Source: Actinomycetota bacterium (GTDB lineage: Bacteria; Actinomycetota; Actinomycetes; Nanopelagicales; Nanopelagicaceae). From it: a DNA stretch of 40,080 bases. Shown piece after piece: positions 5,897 to 37,915 of the stretch; the first letter of the stretch is position 1; each line of letters opens with the position of its first letter. The DNA lies in contig WLIM01000001.1 of assembly GCA_009702205.1 (NCBI GenBank), positions 1 through 40,080 of the forward strand. The letters are read 5' to 3'. The notes under the pieces were generated by a model. That model saw only the letters and a program-made list of their open reading frames with translations, had not been told where the DNA came from and did no database searches. A program made the position numbers and the translations under genes.

Positions 5897-8071
5897 ATGA
5901 ATCCGGTTCTAGATGTGTTAGCAAAGTCTTTAATTGCTCATCACCCTGGCGCCTCAATTCCCGAGTTAGAGCGCGCATATGCCATTGCAGCAGATGCTCA
6001 TGAAGGTCAACTCCGAAAATCGGGAGAGCCTTATATAACTCATCCGCTTGCTGTCTCAGAAATTCTCGCAGATATCGGTCTGGACTTAGAGACAATTATC
6101 GCCGCACTTTTACACGACACTGTTGAAGATACTAAATATTCACTCGACGCCCTTAAGCGAGATTTCGGGAAAGAGGTAGCAAGTCTTGTAGACGGTGTTA
6201 CAAAACTTGATAAGTTGAATTACGGTCCGAATGCCGAGGCCGAAACTCTGCGCAAAATGGTTATCGCAATGTCGAAAGATATTCGAGTACTTGTTATTAA
6301 ATTGGCGGACCGATTACATAATGCGCGTACCTGGAAATATGTTTCAGTTGAATCCGCCCAGCGCAAAGCGCGTGAAACTTTAGATATTTACGCACCACTA
6401 GCTAACCGTTTAGGTATGAGCGCGATTAAGTGGGAGCTTGAGGATCTCTCCTTTAAGACACTAGAGCCTAAAAAATATGAAGAGATCGAACGATTGGTTC
6501 AAGATCGAAATCCAGCTCGTGAAGCTATGACTTCAGAGGTTTTAGGTTTGGTTGAGAAAGATTTGTTAGCTGATGGAATTAGCGCCAAAGTTTTGGGGCG
6601 CCAGAAACATTTATATAGTGTTTATCAAAAGATGGTGATTCGCGGCCGTGATTTCAACGAAATTTATGACTTAGTAGGTATTCGAGTTTTAGTTGAGAGC
6701 GTTAGAGATTGCTATGCCGTCCTCGGAGCTATTCACGCAAGATGGAGCCCTATTCCGGGCCGATTCAAAGATTACATTGCAATGCCAAAGTTCAATTTGT
6801 ATCAATCCCTCCACACAACTGTTATTGGTCCCAATGGAAAAGCAGTAGAGATCCAGATTAGAACTTTTGATATGCATGCGAGAGCCGAGTATGGAATTGC
6901 CGCGCACTGGAAATATAAATTGGCCAGTGTTGGAGATGCAGCGACGGAAAAACCAGAGATGATGTGGTTAAAACAGTTGCATGAATGGCAGCAAGAGACC
7001 GAGGATGTTGGCGAATTTCTGGATACTTTGAGATATGACTTGCGCACTCCAGAGGTATTTGTTTTCACGCCGAAAGGGAGTGTTATCGCACTGCCTTCGG
7101 GTTCAACTCCAGTCGATTTTGCTTATGCAGTTCATACACAAGTGGGGGACCGTTGTGTTGGCGCTAAAGTAAATGGAAAATTAGTCCCGCTCGAATCGAT
7201 ACTTTCTAACGGAGATGTTGTCGAAGTTGTTACGAATAAGAGTCCAAGCGCGGCTCCGAGTCGGGACTGGCTTAACTTCGTCTCTTCACCAAGAGCGCGA
7301 TCGAAGATAAAAGCGTGGTTTAGCAAAGAACGAAAAGAAGAGGCGATTGAAGCAGGAAGGGAATCCATTGCTCGACAGATGCGCAAAGTCGGTCTTCCAC
7401 TTCAGAAGATTTTTGCGGGTCAAGCTTTCCTTGAGCTTTCCCACGATCTGCATTATCCAGATATTGAAAGCATGTATGCCGCAGTTGGAAACGGACATAT
7501 CAGCGCGCAATTTGTAATTGAGAAATTGGTTGCAAATACTGATTTGCATGAACCAGATGCCGAGATTGAAAGTCACGCGATTCCGGCAATTCACTCTTTT
7601 GAACATTTGCGCCGAAATACTTCAGGTGTAGATATTGAGGGCGTTGATGATGTTCTAGTTAAATTGGCTAGATGTTGCACACCTGTCCCTGGTGATGAAA
7701 TCGTAGGTTTCATAACGCGGGGTAGTGGGGTCTCGGTTCACCGAATTGATTGTATAAATGTCACTGATCTCAAACTGCACCAAGGCGATCGAATCGTAAG
7801 CGTTAAATGGAATCACTCAGCAAAAACTGCATTCTTAGTAAATATCCAAGTCGAAGCGCTAGATCGCGCCCGTCTGCTTTCAGATGTAACTCGAACATTG
7901 TCTGATCAGCATGTAAATATTTTGAATGCGGCAGTTAGCACTTCTAAAGACCGAACAGCGATTTCAAGATTTACTTTCGAAATGGCGGATGCTTCGCACC
8001 TAGATGCTGTTCTAGCAAGTGTTAGATCTGTTGAAGGCGTTTACGACGTTTATCGCGTGACTAATAATTAA
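5897..8071 (+). CDS. rel: Bifunctional (p)ppGpp synthetase/hydrolase (long RSH: HD, SYN, TGS, ZFD, ACT)
   Basis: RKSGEPYITHP, intact HD motif LLHDTVEDT, KLADRLHN, RFKDYIAMPK, EIQIRT, TGS VFTPKG...DFAYAVHT, CCTPVPGD, C-terminal ACT domain. Confidence 0.97.
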   Translation: MNPVLDVLAKSLIAHHPGASIPELERAYAIAADAHEGQLRKSGEPYITHPLAVSEILADIGLDLETIIAALLHDTVEDTKYSLDALKRDFGKEVASLVDGVTKLDKLNYGPNAEAETLRKMVIAMSKDIRVLVIKLADRLHNARTWKYVSVESAQRKARETLDIYAPLANRLGMSAIKWELEDLSFKTLEPKKYEEIERLVQDRNPAREAMTSEVLGLVEKDLLADGISAKVLGRQKHLYSVYQKMVIRGRDFNEIYDLVGIRVLVESVRDCYAVLGAIHARWSPIPGRFKDYIAMPKFNLYQSLHTTVIGPNGKAVEIQIRTFDMHARAEYGIAAHWKYKLASVGDAATEKPEMMWLKQLHEWQQETEDVGEFLDTLRYDLRTPEVFVFTPKGSVIALPSGSTPVDFAYAVHTQVGDRCVGAKVNGKLVPLESILSNGDVVEVVTNKSPSAAPSRDWLNFVSSPRARSKIKAWFSKERKEEAIEAGRESIARQMRKVGLPLQKIFAGQAFLELSHDLHYPDIESMYAAVGNGHISAQFVIEKLVANTDLHEPDAEIESHAIPAIHSFEHLRRNTSGVDIEGVDDVLVKLARCCTPVPGDEIVGFITRGSGVSVHRIDCINVTDLKLHQGDRIVSVKWNHSAKTAFLVNIQVEALDRARLLSDVTRTLSDQHVNILNAAVSTSKDRTAISRFTFEMADASHLDAVLASVRSVEGVYDVYRVTNN

Positions 8072-26028: not shown

Positions 26029-26435
26029 TGAGCGCACGCCGCAAGGCGCGCAAGCGTGCTTTAGATTTTCTATACGAAGCTGATATTCGTGGTGCTAGCG
26101 CTTTAGATTTACTTGCATCTCGCCCAGCCGAAGAACTTTCCCAAGGAGATTATGTAGGGCAGTTACTGCATGGGGTAGAAGAGCATCGCCTAAAAATTGA
26201 TGAATTAATTACGACATATGCCCAAGGTTGGGATATGGATCGAATGCCGGCTATAGATCGAAATATTTTGCGAATCGCACTACTAGAAATACTGTGGCTA
26301 GAAGGTTTAGATGATCAGATTGCGATCTCGGAAGCTGTTGAAATTGCGACCGAACTTTCAACTGATGATTCAGCAAAATATATAAATGGTGTGCTCGGTC
26401 GCATTGTTATTTTAAAGCCATCATTTGCACTTTAG
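26028..26435 (+). CDS. nusB: Transcription antitermination factor NusB
   Basis: ARRKARKRA, WDMDRMPAIDRNILR, EAVEIATELSTDDSAKYINGVL. Confidence 0.96.
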   Translation: MSARRKARKRALDFLYEADIRGASALDLLASRPAEELSQGDYVGQLLHGVEEHRLKIDELITTYAQGWDMDRMPAIDRNILRIALLEILWLEGLDDQIAISEAVEIATELSTDDSAKYINGVLGRIVILKPSFAL

Positions 26436-26917
26436 CGCTTAACTAATAACAATCTATTAGCGGCAAGAAATTCATATGCCCCATTTTCATCCTTATTGAT
26501 TAATAGTCCGATGGTTCCGAGGTCACTATTTCTTATGGATAAAACCTCGCCATTCCAATCACGCCTCCTGGCGCAAATCAAGGTTGCAAAATTTCTGATT
26601 GCCTCAAGTTCGGGAAGATAGGGGTTGGGATTACTTGTCGCTCTAATATCTAAAGTTATTTTGCCGCCCAGACTAGAGCTTTCTACCTTGGCTATACCTA
26701 GAAGTTGCTCCAGCGGGACTTGGTAGAAATTGGCGAGTGAAACTGCTTTCTTCACCGAAAGCGCTCGATCGCAGCGTTCATAAGAGCCGATAACGACGGC
26801 TTTCCAAATTCCATTTGATTTAATCTCGACCTCCATAAGTGTTAGGCCCTTGGCTTTCCTTACAGCCTTTATAGAAGCTGCGATTTCTTCAATTGAACGT
26901 TCTGGAATATTTAGCAT
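26432..26917 (-). CDS. bldD: BldD-family XRE transcriptional regulator
   Basis: VE.KS.G.WKAVVIGSYERCDRA...LANFYQVP matches the Streptomyces BldD HTH as I recall it (WKAVVVGSYERGDRA...LADFYGVP); CTD KITLD and RRDWNGEVLSIRNSD; same nusB/pyrR-divergent position as bldD. Confidence 0.88.
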   Translation of the reverse strand: MLNIPERSIEEIAASIKAVRKAKGLTLMEVEIKSNGIWKAVVIGSYERCDRALSVKKAVSLANFYQVPLEQLLGIAKVESSSLGGKITLDIRATSNPNPYLPELEAIRNFATLICARRRDWNGEVLSIRNSDLGTIGLLINKDENGAYEFLAANRLLLVKR

Positions 26918-26976: not shown

Positions 26977-27000
26977 TTCCCCGCCCGAGAGGCAAGAAAG

Positions 27001-28522
<1,522 letters not shown>

Positions 28523-35070: not shown

Positions 35071-36005
35071 TGTTTAACTTCGAAACTAGTCTTGGTCAAG
35101 CTTCCTTTGCGAATCCAATTTTCACTGCGAGCGGCTGTGCGGGTTCTGGACGCGAGTTAAGTCAATTCTTTGAGTTGACCGAATTGGGGGCAGTCGTAAC
35201 TAAATCAATTATGTTAAAGCCACGATCAGGACGGGCAACTCCACGTATGGCTGAAACTCCTAGTGGCATGCTCAACTCAATTGGATTACAAGGACCTGGT
35301 ATAGATATTTTCTTAGAGAAAGATATTCCGTGGTTGCGAGATCAAGGTGCAAATATTGTTGTAAGCATTGCAGGGGAAAGCGTTGAAGATTATGCAGTTC
35401 TAGCTCGCAAACTTAGATCTGTATCTGGGATCTCAGCTCTTGAAGTAAATATCTCATGTCCAAATGTTGAAAACCGTGGCCAAGTTTTTGCCTGTCATCC
35501 AGAGACAGCTCGTGCGGCAATCGAAGCTGTTCGCAGAAATATTGGCGGCGAACTTCCTATCATCGCGAAATTGACTCCAGATGTAACTAGCATCGCAATG
35601 ATCGCGGAGGAAGTTGTTGCAGCGGGGGCTGACGCCTTAGCTCTGATTAATACTGTTCTGGGAATGGTTATCGATACAAACACAATGAGACCTAAATTGG
35701 CAGGCAAAACAGGTGGACTCTCTGGCCCAGCAATAAGGCCGGTGGCTGTGCGTGCGATTTATCAAGTTCATGAAGCAATGCCGCAGGTAAAAATTCTAGG
35801 AATGGGTGGCGTCGCAACGGGCCGGGATGCCTTCGAATTAATCCTTGCTGGTGCATCTGCAGTCTCTATTGGTACAGCAACTTTTGGAAATCCAACTGCT
35901 GTAATGAAAATTAAGGAAGAATTGAAGGCAGGGCTAATAGCTCACGGCTTCGATTCCCTGAAAGAAGCGGTTGGCTACGCTCATAGAGTTGAGGGGAATT
36001 TATAG
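35070..36005 (+). CDS. pyrD: Dihydroorotate dehydrogenase class 1B catalytic subunit
   Basis: TASGC, VTKS, MLNSIGLQGPG, EVNISCPN, INT, GGLSGPAIRP. ATG at 35070. Confidence 0.96.
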   Translation: MFNFETSLGQASFANPIFTASGCAGSGRELSQFFELTELGAVVTKSIMLKPRSGRATPRMAETPSGMLNSIGLQGPGIDIFLEKDIPWLRDQGANIVVSIAGESVEDYAVLARKLRSVSGISALEVNISCPNVENRGQVFACHPETARAAIEAVRRNIGGELPIIAKLTPDVTSIAMIAEEVVAAGADALALINTVLGMVIDTNTMRPKLAGKTGGLSGPAIRPVAVRAIYQVHEAMPQVKILGMGGVATGRDAFELILAGASAVSIGTATFGNPTAVMKIKEELKAGLIAHGFDSLKEAVGYAHRVEGNL

Positions 36006-36703
36006 TGCCAAAATCACCAATCATTCTTGCCCTTGATACTAAAGATTTAGATGTTGCGAAGAGCTGGATAAGTGCTACAAATGAGTCGATTGATATTTAT
36101 AAAATTGGCTTAGAATTTTTCTTGAAATTTGGGGCGGCCGGATTAAAGGAACTGCGGAATAGTGGAGATTTTGCAGTATTTCTCGATTTAAAGCTTCACG
36201 ATATTCCCAATACCGTCGCAGGTGCCGTCGCATCAGTTGCTGATTTGAACCCTAAATTTCTAACAATTCATGCGAGCGGCGGCGCAGCGATGATCAAAGC
36301 AGCTGCGGATAGTGGGCCAGAAATTTCGATCACAGCGGTAACTATTCTTACTTCATTGACTGAAAGCGACGTTACTGAAATCGGCTTTTCTAAAGATGCC
36401 AAAACAAGTGCGATTAATCTTGCAAAGCTAGCCGCTGAAAATGGAGCCCGCTCGATTGTCTGTTCACCCTTTGAAGCGGCAGCAATTCGCAGCGCCATTG
36501 GGGCTCATATCGAAATCATTACTCCTGGAGTCCGACCAATTGGTGGCGATGTTGGCGATCAAAAGCGAGTTATGACTCCTGAAGAAGCAATTAGCGCTGG
36601 CGCTAATTATCTAGTTATTGGACGCCCGATAACAGATTTGGCAAGGCAATCGCTCTCTGCAATGTCATCGGGCGCTGCAAAAATTCTTGCTAGCCTTCAA
36701 TAA
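36005..36703 (+). CDS. pyrF: Orotidine-5'-phosphate decarboxylase
   Basis: ILALD, FLDLKLHDIPNTV, VTILTS, TPGVRP, DQKRVMTP, VIGRPI. Confidence 0.97.
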   Translation: MPKSPIILALDTKDLDVAKSWISATNESIDIYKIGLEFFLKFGAAGLKELRNSGDFAVFLDLKLHDIPNTVAGAVASVADLNPKFLTIHASGGAAMIKAAADSGPEISITAVTILTSLTESDVTEIGFSKDAKTSAINLAKLAAENGARSIVCSPFEAAAIRSAIGAHIEIITPGVRPIGGDVGDQKRVMTPEEAISAGANYLVIGRPITDLARQSLSAMSSGAAKILASLQ

Positions 36704-36705
36704 AT

Positions 36706-37587
36706 ATGGCTAACTTTCCGCCAAAGCTCTCCAGAGAAGCGCTAGCCGCAGCTGGGGAGAAGGCGATCGCATCTAGACGTGAACGTGCTTTGGTAAAGAA
36801 GATGTTAGCTGATGGCTCGCTCAATATTTTCGAGGCAATAAATGACGCCCGCGATTCAATTCAAAGAATGCGAGTTCGCGACCTATTGGATGCAGCTCCG
36901 GGAATCGGAGAACGAAGAGCCTTTACAATTATGGAGAAGGCGGGCATATCTCATTCGCGTAGAATTGCGGGACTGGGGGCACACCAATTACGCAAACTAC
37001 GAGATGAGATGATTTTGAATAAAGTTCCGATTAATGAAGGAACCCTAATTGTTATGTCTGGCCCCGGCGGTGTTGGAAAGAGCACGATTACTTCTCACCT
37101 TAGAAATCATCCATCTGTTTTAGTTTCTGTTTCGGTCACCACTCGTGAGCCACGAGAAAATGAAATTGATGGCCGCGATTATCATTTTATTACTGAAGAA
37201 AAATTCGATCAGATGATTGCGCGAAATGAATTTCTCGAATGGGCCGAGTTTGCAGGTGCGAGATATGGAACGCTGCGAAAGAGTGTTGAAGATGGAAGAT
37301 CAATAGGAAAACATGTTCTTCTGGAAATTGAAATCGCTGGCGCTAGGCAGATTCGCAAGGCTGAGCCCGAGGCTCTTCTAGTTTTTATCTCACCGCCTTC
37401 TTGGGAAGATTTAGTAGAGCGCCTAACCTCCCGTGGAACAGACTCGCCTGAGCGAAGAGCAGCCCGATTGGCCTTAGCGGAAGAAGAGATGGCTTGTGCA
37501 AGTGAATTCGATGAAGTTCTCGTAAATCACCGGGTCGAAGATGTAGCCGCAACACTGCTATCCTTGGCCTCTTCGAGGAGCAAATAG
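36706..37587 (+). CDS. gmk: Fusion protein: actinobacterial integration host factor (mIHF/sIHF, aa ~1-102) plus guanylate kinase (aa ~113-293)
   Basis: N-terminal [25 protein letters not shown]...[36 protein letters not shown] is mIHF-like; C-terminal [36 protein letters not shown]...YGT, FISPPS is Gmk. No stop codon between them. Confidence 0.9.
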
Positions 37588-37636: not shown

Positions 37637-37915
37637 ATGACAACAATGGATGGCATTACTAACCCACCAATCGATCAATTGCTTGATGCTGCTGGTTCAA
37701 AATACAGTTTGGTTCTATACGCGGCTAAGCGCGCGCGCCAAATCAATGCATATTATTCACAACTAGGCGAAGGCCTTCTTGAATATGTAGGGCCGCTAGT
37801 CGAGACCTATGTTCACGAGAAGCCACTTTCAATTGCGCTTCGTGAAATCAACGAAGGATTATTGACTATCGAAAATCTGGAGCCAGTGGCACCAGAGGCA
37901 AGTCCTGCTGAATAA
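37637..37915 (+). CDS. rpoZ: RNA polymerase omega subunit
   Basis: [11 protein letters not shown]...[20 protein letters not shown]...[11 protein letters not shown]. Confidence 0.97.

What the first reader, a model, noticed from the sequence alone, without database searches (positions are those of the whole stretch)
36706..37587. Nucleoid-associated protein mIHF fused in frame to guanylate kinase
Seen: one 293-aa ORF whose first ~102 aa carry the mIHF/sIHF (H2TH) pattern, joined by a short linker ([12 protein letters not shown]) to a full Gmk. Known: pyrF-mihF-gmk-rpoZ are normally separate neighbouring genes in actinobacteria, and Gmk is a (p)ppGpp target in several Gram-positive lineages. 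Inference: the fusion could tether GDP supply to the nucleoid, or couple chromosome compaction to guanine nucleotide/(p)ppGpp state, with Gmk oligomerisation making mIHF multivalent. Against the sIHF sequence as I recall it, two basic positions are changed (GVGK to GIGE, RRVRGLG to RRIAGLG), so DNA binding may be retuned. The in-frame ATG at 37009 could also give a free Gmk isoform.
Basis: partly seen in the sequence, partly recalled or inferred. Interest (0 to 1): 0.78.

Follow-up and report, generated by a model that had tools for sequence, protein, structure and literature searches.

The report
Nucleoid–kinase fusion hiding a second gene
In this freshwater actinobacterium the genes for a DNA-packing protein (mIHF) and the enzyme guanylate kinase form one uninterrupted reading frame shared by many relatives, and a conserved promoter-like motif and start codon hidden inside it likely let the cell also make the kinase on its own, so the fusion is real but is probably a tolerated merger of neighbours rather than a new regulatory device.

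Summary
Confirmed: the 293-aa ORF has an actinobacterial IHF domain (aa 6-101) and a guanylate kinase (112-287), both above curated cut-offs. It is no artefact: 24 of 24 genus relatives cross the junction without a stop, as do contigs from 4 studies. The fusion occurs in 11 of 18 genera of the family and, separately, in Microbacteriaceae; databases call it only 'guanylate kinase'. This scan found it before in two other genomes.

New here: in 65 related loci from four genera, a -10-like TANNNT sits frozen in the R85-R86-I87 codons (60 of 65), and exactly one start codon is kept at codon 104 or 105 (64 of 65), behind a GAG. The likely free-kinase start is TTG 37015, not ATG 37009. The full-length start has no Shine-Dalgarno sequence and lies 2 nt after pyrF.

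Best reading: a two-product gene, giving mIHF-Gmk as the tail of the pyr operon plus free Gmk from an internal promoter (inferred, no transcript or protein data). I found no support for multivalency or (p)ppGpp control of DNA packing. Lid residue R88 is lost in 126 of 126 genome-derived fusions, but two database fusions keep it.

The parts
36706..37587 (+). mihF::gmk fused ORF, 293 aa (32.5 kDa)
36721..37008 (+). Actinobacterial IHF (mIHF/sIHF, S13-like H2TH) domain, aa 6-101; aa 1-103 has pI 10.8, net charge +7
   Evidence: NF041260 90.1 bits; 4ITQ and 6TOB hits
37009..37038 (+). Linker, aa 102-111; predicted flexible (pLDDT under 50 at 104-108); sequence and length vary between genera
37039..37566 (+). 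Guanylate kinase domain, aa 112-287; P-loop and GMP/ATP-site residues invariant; no long C-terminal tail
   Evidence: TIGR03263 213 bits
36960..36965 (+). Predicted internal -10 promoter hexamer TAGAAT within codons R85-R86-I87; transcript start predicted near 36971-36972
   Evidence: TANNNT in 60 of 65 clade-A loci, 7 of 46 clade-B, 0 of 21 unfused family, 0 of 18 outgroup; 5 codon changes each at R85 and R86 against 30-39 at 9 other Arg columns; second-ranked site of an unbiased scan
37006..37008 (+). Predicted Shine-Dalgarno core GAG (codon E101), 6 nt before the internal start; weak in this genome (-3.0 kcal/mol)
   Evidence: GAG in 60 of 65 against 49% background; mean -5.75 against -2.32 kcal/mol at other in-frame start-type codons
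37015..37017 (+). Predicted internal start codon TTG (codon 104) for a free 190-aa, 21-kDa Gmk
   Evidence: exactly one ATG/GTG/TTG at codon 104 or 105 in 64 of 65 loci, never both; 0 codon changes in 41 Leu104 rows
37009..37011 (+).
   Evidence: 19 of 65 loci; mean Shine-Dalgarno energy -1.56
36005..36703 (+). pyrF; its stop lies 2 nt before the fusion ATG (predicted translational coupling)
36691..36696 (+). TAGCCT hexamer 9 nt before the fusion ATG; a possible short-leader promoter, only partly conserved
   Evidence: 13 of 29 genus loci have TANNNT here
37556..37564 (+). Predicted extended -10 promoter (TG-n-TATCCT) for rpoZ inside the last gmk codons; serves as an internal control for the frozen-codon method
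   Evidence: 64 of 64 clade A, 23 of 23 g33, 15 of 15 g21
26998..27040 (+). PyrR-binding-loop-like hairpin whose 3' strand covers the pyrR ribosome-binding site, at the head of the gap-free pyrR-pyrB-pyrC-carA-carB-pyrK-pyrD-pyrF-fusion run
   Evidence: Rfam RF00515 27.3 bits, below gathering score 54, E 0.045; no hit at gathering threshold; fold and gaps; gene names
37637..37915 (+). rpoZ, downstream neighbour
   Evidence: PF01192

Best explanation
The ORF joins mIHF and guanylate kinase in one frame, and it likely works as a two-product gene: a full-length mIHF-Gmk predicted to be translated by coupling to pyrF at the end of the pyrimidine operon, and a free 190-residue Gmk predicted to come from an internal promoter (TAGAAT, 36960), a GAG ribosome site and TTG 37015. 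Shown: the frame, both domains, intact active-site and lid residues, one copy of each domain in complete relatives, and the conservation pattern of the three internal signals. Inferred: the fusion arose by loss of the stop between two abutting genes, which has happened repeatedly in Actinomycetes. In the fusion, mIHF would bind DNA non-specifically and carry an active, probably monomeric Gmk on a flexible linker as a tolerated passenger. This clade appears to have lost the leaderless mihF promoter seen in genera g33 and g21, so the internal signals would keep essential Gmk supplied independently of the PyrR-led operon.
For: Start codon: 64 of 65 clade-A loci have exactly one ATG/GTG/TTG at codon 104 or 105. 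Leu104 is TTG in 41 of 41 loci lacking a start at 105 and in 0 of 6 that have ATG at 105; background TTG use for Leu is 21.5%. Leu104 shows 0 synonymous changes against 14-26 at 11 of 13 other Leu columns (the two exceptions flank the predicted rpoZ promoter), and start identity or position changes 11 times on the tree without being lost, apart from one locus. Promoter; the hexamer survives amino-acid changes (TAGACT, TAAGAT in g20). TANNNT marks promoters in this genome: it lies exactly 6 nt before the first ATG in 109 of 689 ORFs, against about 2 expected from internal ATGs. 5' end: TANNNT 5-7 nt before a candidate start in 22 of 23 g33 and 12 of 15 g21 loci, against 4 of 29 g1, 1 of 14 g18, 2 of 9 g20 and 3 of 13 g24; a Shine-Dalgarno of -3.5 or stronger in 2 of 29 g1; no pyrF position exceeds 39 of 65. 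Passenger: pLDDT 86 but pTM 0.62 with a low-confidence linker; linkers of 26-42 aa between lid and P-loop across genera; M. smegmatis IHF stays functional when fused to EGFP at its native locus (PMC10028186 section 13). Easy origin: unfused relatives have overlapping or directly abutting stop and start codons; in M. tuberculosis, deleting mihF is polar on gmk-rpoZ (PMC6155035 passages). Repeated origin: fused rows are not one clade (RpoB AU p 0.00045; Gmk AU p 7e-7).
Against: There are no transcript-start, ribosome-profiling or proteomic data; the RNA runs were contigs of mostly 85-95%-identical relatives and cannot show starts. This genome's internal Shine-Dalgarno is weak (-3.0; only 59% of 29 g1 loci reach -3.5). 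E261 is nearly as frozen as E101 (6 against 5 changes), so GAG conservation alone is not unique. A two-hexamer sigma-70 scan reports neither internal promoter. A TAGCCT 9 nt before the full-length ATG could be its own promoter (13 of 29 g1; spacing 9 is mildly enriched genome-wide, 15 against about 4), which would undo the pyr-operon dependence. The PyrR site is below Rfam's gathering score. The contrast between 5' and internal promoters rests on one or two evolutionary events. Four of 13 g24 loci lack the internal hexamer. The passenger reading does not explain why R88 is lost in so many fusions.
Confidence: 0.6

Rival explanations
1. The fusion is selected for function: it ties GDP synthesis to the nucleoid, or lets GMP, ATP or (p)ppGpp binding to Gmk tune DNA packing, with the loss of R88 retuning the DNA-binding lid.
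For: The fusion recurs in at least three separate lineages, and ten further 50%-identity representatives span both domains. It looks obligate in clade B (no conserved linker start; any start codon in 12 of 46) and in family f48. R88 is lost in 126 of 126 genome-derived fusions and kept in 18 of 18 outgroup genes; it is G in 118 of 120 Cryobacterium-like hits, with 2 unparsed. A Rel enzyme is encoded in the window at 5975-8056.
Against: The model gives no fixed domain orientation. Linkers are unconserved. The Gmk lacks the dimer tail. Unfused genera g34 and g27 nest among fused ones and mostly lack R88 too. P0243 and P0244 keep R88 and P0250 has K. Clade A keeps signals for a free Gmk. Diffusion in a very small cell makes local GDP supply of little value (inference).
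Confidence: 0.2
2. Only the full-length fusion is made; the conserved start codon and hexamer are remnants of the ancestral stop/start overlap or reflect some other constraint on the RNA or DNA.
For: 54 of 64 internal starts read NTG-A, like the ancestral ATGA overlap of unfused relatives. No expression data exist here.
Against: Synonymous sites elsewhere are saturated, so neutral remnants should have decayed. The start moves between codons 104 and 105 with exact compensation. The hexamer is absent from all 21 unfused family members, so it is not an ancestral remnant.
Confidence: 0.1
3. The junction yields free mIHF, by a +1 ribosomal frameshift into the TGA that overlaps the internal start or by linker proteolysis, so the cell rebuilds the two ancestral proteins.
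For: A +1-frame stop lies within 6 codons of position 101 in 61 of 65 clade-A loci against 37% background. A follows the start in 54 of 64, against 77 of 175 Shine-Dalgarno-led starts in this genome. mIHF is among the ten most abundant proteins in M. tuberculosis (PMC6155035 passages), so a 1:1 tie to Gmk is odd.
Against: Ten loci keep the start codon but lose the overlapping TGA. Codons 102-103 vary freely, so there is no conserved slippery site. Clade B shows no such stop (15 of 46 against 32% background).
Confidence: 0.07
4. Assembly or sequencing artefact that removed a stop codon.
For: The window comes from a 70.6%-complete assembly. Twelve genomes of other families and seven of this family have the two genes in frame with only a stop between them.
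Against: 118 fused loci in 11 genera, including single-contig genomes; 4 of 4 DNA runs bridge the junction.
Confidence: 0.01

Closest known systems
sIHF of Streptomyces (SCO1480, PDB 4ITQ/6BEK) and mIHF of mycobacteria (Rv1388, PDB 6TOB); NCBIfam NF041260, Pfam PF22525
   Same: Sequence family, helical H2TH fold, long N-terminal helix, basic lid (R85, R86, G89, G91, Q94 kept), position between pyrF and gmk-rpoZ.
   Different: Carries a C-terminal Gmk; lid R88 is Ala and K69 is Glu; no Shine-Dalgarno or conserved leaderless promoter of its own; its lid codons hold a predicted promoter.
Actinobacterial guanylate kinase (M. tuberculosis Rv1389, PDB 1ZNW/1S4Q; TIGR03263)
   Same: Best sequence and fold matches; P-loop and substrate-site residues invariant; short C-terminus.
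   Different: N-terminally fused to mIHF; predicted to be made in two forms; position 260, equivalent to the mycobacterial phosphosite Thr169, is Glu (alignment; PMC5686395 passages).
Oligomeric GMKs of E. coli (2ANB) and S. aureus (4QRH)
   Same: Same fold and active site.
   Different: They have a C-terminal tail that contacts the neighbouring lid and sets (p)ppGpp sensitivity (PMC6783271 section 11); this protein lacks it.
mIHF-Gmk fusions of Microbacteriaceae (Cryobacterium, Glaciibacter, Microterricola; a 304-aa Tropheryma record), annotated only 'guanylate kinase'
   Same: Same domain order PF22525 + PF00625, similar length, R88 lost.
   Different: Separate origin; Shine-Dalgarno-led 5' start in 7 of 7, no internal hexamer in 7 of 7, no conserved linker start.
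In-frame two-product bacterial genes with an internal start, such as infB, clpB and cheA (recalled, not checked here)
   Same: One frame giving a long and a short product that share the C-terminus.
   Different: Here the long form is a fusion of two unrelated housekeeping proteins, and the short form appears to have its own promoter inside the first domain's DNA-binding codons.

Membership tests
Actinobacterial IHF (mIHF/sIHF) | Passes the curated family model NF041260 / PF22525 | tested here: met
   90.1 bits against cut-off 60; 64 bits against 27
Actinobacterial IHF (mIHF/sIHF) | Long N-terminal helix plus four short helices with H2TH motif and lid | tested here: met
   Predicted helices 10-36, 41-45, 50-53, 57-63, 68-79, 92-104; described in PMC3627587 section 24
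Actinobacterial IHF (mIHF/sIHF) | Basic lid residues that contact the DNA backbone | tested here: inconclusive
   R85, G89, G91, Q94 invariant and R86 is R or K in all groups; R88 lost; net charge +7 against outgroup median +8
Actinobacterial IHF (mIHF/sIHF) | Small stand-alone protein of about 105 aa | tested here: not met
   No stop after the domain; no second copy in this genome or in 3 complete fused relatives
Actinobacterial IHF (mIHF/sIHF) | Binds and compacts DNA, locates to the nucleoid | not testable with these tools
   Needs EMSA and imaging
Guanylate kinase (Gmk) | Passes TIGR03263 / PF00625 | tested here: met
   213.2 bits against 160.45; 162.4 against 25.2
Guanylate kinase (Gmk) | P-loop and GMP/ATP-site residues intact | tested here: met
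   G119, G124, K125, S143, R147, R150, Y187, E207, R239, R243 invariant in all groups; R254 in all rows that reach it
Guanylate kinase (Gmk) | Only gmk gene in the genome | tested here: met
   One match in each of 5 of 5 fused genomes that are 99-100% complete
Guanylate kinase (Gmk) | Converts GMP and ATP to GDP | not testable with these tools
   Needs an enzyme assay
Oligomeric, tail-regulated GMK (E. coli / S. aureus type) | C-terminal tail contacting the neighbouring lid | tested here: not met
   12 residues follow the match to E. coli 2AN9, which has 31; median domain length 181
(p)ppGpp-inhibited GMK | Inhibition by (p)ppGpp | not testable with these tools
   The primary paper was not held; Rel is present
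Two-product gene with internal initiation | Conserved in-frame start codon with ribosome site | tested here: met
   (comparative evidence only)
Two-product gene with internal initiation | Both products seen in cells | not testable with these tools
   RNA runs were contigs only; no proteomics

The most novel reading that the evidence does not exclude
In this clade of streamlined freshwater actinobacteria, the cell's only mIHF is made as a kinase-bearing fusion at the tail of the PyrR-controlled pyrimidine operon, so nucleoid packing follows nucleotide supply, while a promoter written into the protein's own DNA-binding arginine codons releases free Gmk. The repeated fusion with loss of R88 in unrelated families would then mark a nucleotide-responsive nucleoid protein.
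Probability: 0.15. Interest if true: 0.8.

Novelty: new variant of a known kind. Interest (0 to 1): 0.52.

Why it matters
Annotation calls these proteins 'guanylate kinase', so the only mIHF of most genera in this freshwater family and of the Microbacteriaceae sampled goes unnoticed. The fusion has arisen several times and has two regulatory layouts: an apparently obligate fusion from a leaderless promoter (g33, g21), and a fusion coupled to pyrF plus an internal promoter and start (g1, g18, g20, g24). That gives a natural test of how a very abundant nucleoid protein and a modest housekeeping enzyme can share one frame, and of whether nucleoid packing can be tied to nucleotide metabolism. The predicted sites are exact, so one 5'-end RNA or tagging experiment can test them.

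Tried and rejected
ATG 37009 as the internal start: rejected (19 of 65, weak ribosome site). K69E as a mark of fusion: rejected (E in 9 of 21 unfused family members; K in 43 of 46 clade-B fusions). R88 loss as universal in fusions: rejected (P0243, P0244 keep R). One clade of fused genes: rejected. The first RpoB tree held two rows whose longest ORF was evidently not RpoB (G025, G034); they and 9 redundant rows were dropped for (31 of 42 rows). Changes on the tree (minimum 2) cannot tell one fusion plus re-splitting in g34/g27 from three fusions. 'Single match' as proof of fusion: rejected, since 7 family and 12 other genomes had an in-frame stop. Conserved TTG as a -35 box: rejected because GTG and ATG replace it and ATG at 105 compensates. 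Low RNA structure at the internal start: not distinctive. Homodimer prediction: score 0.00, no verdict, not evidence either way. RNA runs: small shares and contigs only; one 86%-identical relative contig overlaps the junction; uninformative. No 16S 3' end was found in the genome by motif, so a generic anti-Shine-Dalgarno was used. HU was not found in this 70.6%-complete genome but is present in 4 of 4 complete relatives. Start-finding failed to anchor many rows and was redone. Papers not held: PubMed 26067376 and PMC4336630.

Full report
Observation. The ORF at 36706-37587 (+) is 293 codons with no internal stop. Residues 6-101 pass the actinobacterial IHF model (90.1 bits, cut-off 60) and 112-287 pass the guanylate kinase model (213.2, cut-off 160.45); Pfam agrees. 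The N-terminal part matches sIHF 4ITQ and mIHF 6TOB, and the C-terminal part matches M. tuberculosis Gmk best by sequence and by fold. It lies 2 nt after pyrF at the end of a gap-free run pyrR-pyrB-pyrC-carA-carB-pyrK-pyrD-pyrF, and before rpoZ-coaBC-metK (carB was named from its sequence, not scanned). Close homologues (75-82%) lie in records titled 'actinobacterium SCGC AAA044-D11' and in Actinomycetota MAGs, and the runs that hold the DNA best are lake, river and other freshwater or aquatic metagenomes. That this is the acI lineage (Nanopelagicaceae) is my recollection, not a call result.

It is not an artefact. Contigs from 4 of 4 laid DNA runs, from 4 studies, bridge the junction with no indel. 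All 24 genus relatives cross it without a stop. Among 200 family genomes, 198 matched. I inspected 139 family loci, chosen to cover the 18 genera and biased to the best-scoring rows: 118 were fused (g1 29, g18 14, g19 2, g20 9, g21 15, g22 6, g24 13, g25 4, g28 1, g30 2, g33 23) and 21 separate (g23, g26, g27, g29, g31, g32, g34); no genus was mixed. Two further family loci reached only gmk. In 3 complete fused genomes the fusion holds the only mIHF and the only gmk; HU and Rel are present.

The fusion recurs. Among 328 class genomes outside the family, the listed rows show a full-length stop-free match in 12 of 13 genomes of family f48 and in G625 of f51; 536 weaker rows were not listed. Seven f48 loci and G625 were confirmed fused by script, and the other five f48 genomes by a family search in the same open frame. 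An f48 protein finds Cryobacterium and allies (Microbacteriaceae), all named only 'guanylate kinase'. Ten further 50%-identity representatives hit both models, six above the IHF cut-off. Fused rows are rejected as one clade on an RpoB tree of 31 rows (AU p 0.00045) and on a Gmk tree of 52 rows (p 7e-7); both are quick LG+G4 trees. Within the family, unfused g34 and g27 sit among fused genera, so either one fusion was undone or it arose about three times. Unfused relatives have overlapping or abutting stop and start codons, so one small change suffices.

Both halves look functional. R88 is absent from 126 of 126 genome-derived fusions and present in 18 of 18 outgroup genes, but it is also lost in 11 of 21 unfused family members, and two database fusions keep it. 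That this arginine matters for mIHF DNA binding is recalled; the paper was not held. The mIHF domain diverges 1.4-2.7 times faster than Gmk in fused and unfused family groups alike, against 1.1 in the outgroup.

Multivalency is unsupported. The predicted structure has two confident domains and a low-confidence linker (pLDDT 86, pTM 0.62). GMK dimers of E. coli and S. aureus use a C-terminal tail (PMC6783271, passages and section 11), which this protein lacks, as does the M. tuberculosis enzyme; that the latter is monomeric is recalled. M. smegmatis IHF tolerates an EGFP fusion as its only copy (PMC10028186, passages and section 13). Sensitivity to (p)ppGpp could not be assessed.

A second gene is hidden inside. 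In 65 loci of g1, g18, g20 and g24 (clade A), exactly one ATG, GTG or TTG stands at codon 104 (52) or 105 (12), never both, with one exception. Leu104 is TTG in 41 of 41 loci without a start at 105 and in 0 of 6 with one; background is 21.5%. On a tree built without the linker, those 41 rows show no synonymous change at 104, against 14-26 at 11 other Leu columns. E101 is GAG in 60 of 65 (background 49%), and pairing to a generic anti-Shine-Dalgarno averages -5.75 kcal/mol against -2.32 at 914 other in-frame start-type codons; this genome's own site is weak, at -3.0. ATG 37009 is present in only 19 of 65.

Fifty bases upstream, codons R85-R86-I87 spell TANNNT (TAGAAT, 36960-36965) in 60 of 65 clade-A loci, 2 of 2 g30, 7 of 46 clade B (g33, g21, g22, g19), 1 of 4 g25, 0 of 21 unfused, 0 of 18 outgroup and 0 of 7 f48. 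R85 and R86 change codon 5 times each, against 30-39 at nine other Arg columns. An unbiased scan of the ORF ranks only one site higher, an extended -10 at 37556-37564 ahead of rpoZ, kept in 64 of 64 clade A, 23 of 23 g33 and 15 of 15 g21. TANNNT behaves as the promoter motif in this genome: 109 of 689 ORFs have it exactly 6 nt before the first ATG, and it is the common -10 of M. tuberculosis (PMC6155035, passages). A scan needing a -35 box finds neither site.

The 5' end is the mirror image. g33 (22 of 23) and g21 (12 of 15) have TANNNT 5-7 nt before a candidate start, a leaderless signature, and no conserved internal start. Clade A has it in 10 of 65, rarely has a ribosome site, and in g1 starts within -8 to 13 nt of the pyrF stop in 22 of 23 anchored rows. 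No pyrF position is conserved beyond 39 of 65. A PyrR-like hairpin covers the pyrR ribosome site (27.3 bits, below gathering); PyrR repression of translation in actinobacteria is recalled. Caveat: this genome has TAGCCT 9 nt before the full-length ATG, and 13 of 29 g1 loci have a hexamer there, so a short-leader promoter is not excluded. The contrast rests on one or two evolutionary events, so it is suggestive only.

Mechanism. Most likely (0.6) the gene gives two products: mIHF-Gmk, coupled to pyrF, in which Gmk rides as a tolerated passenger; and free Gmk from the internal promoter and TTG 37015, which keeps an essential enzyme independent of the pyrimidine operon. Rivals are functional nucleoid-nucleotide coupling (0.2), fusion only with remnant signals (0.1), and free mIHF by frameshift or cleavage (0.07). 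The last draws on a +1 stop near the junction in 61 of 65 loci, which the start codon plus a following A largely explains.

Prior knowledge. Ten full-text searches of the open library found no description of the fusion: mIHF + guanylate kinase + fusion, 0 papers; Planktophila + guanylate kinase, 0; mihF + gmk, 1 paper, on separate genes; searches listed nothing on it by title or abstract start. Subscription journals are mostly missing, and I read no supplements. PMC5686395 was seen as passages. This scan noted the same fusion in two other genomes; a word search of earlier findings for the internal start and promoter returned none.

Verdict. The fusion is real, widespread and uncharacterised in the literature searched, and it is built of two known families. 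The nested promoter and start are the new, testable element. New variant of a known kind; interest 0.52.

Noticed in passing
window 37556-37564: Extended -10-like motif (TG-n-TANNNT) inside the last gmk codons, kept in all 102 loci of clade A, g33 and g21 that reach it; likely the rpoZ-coaBC-metK promoter.
   Followed up: partly
window 26998-27040: PyrR-binding-loop-like hairpin that pairs with the pyrR ribosome site; below the Rfam gathering score.
   Followed up: partly
genome G000, all contigs: Strong leaderless signature: TANNNT exactly 6 nt before the first ATG in 109 of 689 long ORFs.
   Followed up: partly
L098, L131 (genus g30), linker: Both g30 loci have the internal hexamer, and AAGGAG 6 nt before an ATT at codon 104 with no ATG/GTG/TTG in the linker; possibly a non-canonical ATT start.
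   Followed up: no
L095, L096, L169, L170 (genus g25), linker: All four g25 fusions have a longer linker with ATG or GTG at one position shortly before the first Gmk strand; possibly a separately retained internal start.
   Followed up: no
L053, L064, L073-L075, L090-L092 (genus g34), L063 (g27), upstream of mihF: A TTTAAT hexamer sits about 6 nt before the mihF start in most g34 loci and in g27 instead of TANNNT; perhaps a variant promoter.
   Followed up: no
P0406 and P0407: The Tropheryma whipplei gene is on record both as a 304-aa protein and as a 193-aa Swiss-Prot guanylate kinase; the short record leaves out the mIHF domain.
   Followed up: no
window 37486-37491 (codons E261-M262): E261 is almost always GAG in clade A (6 codon changes against 14-21 at most Glu columns); unexplained.
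   Followed up: no
window 26432-26917 (-): A 161-codon ORF on the opposite strand between nusB and the pyrR leader; not annotated here.
   Followed up: no
window 5897-8071: Rel (RelA/SpoT) gene, 834 bits, in the same contig.
   Followed up: no
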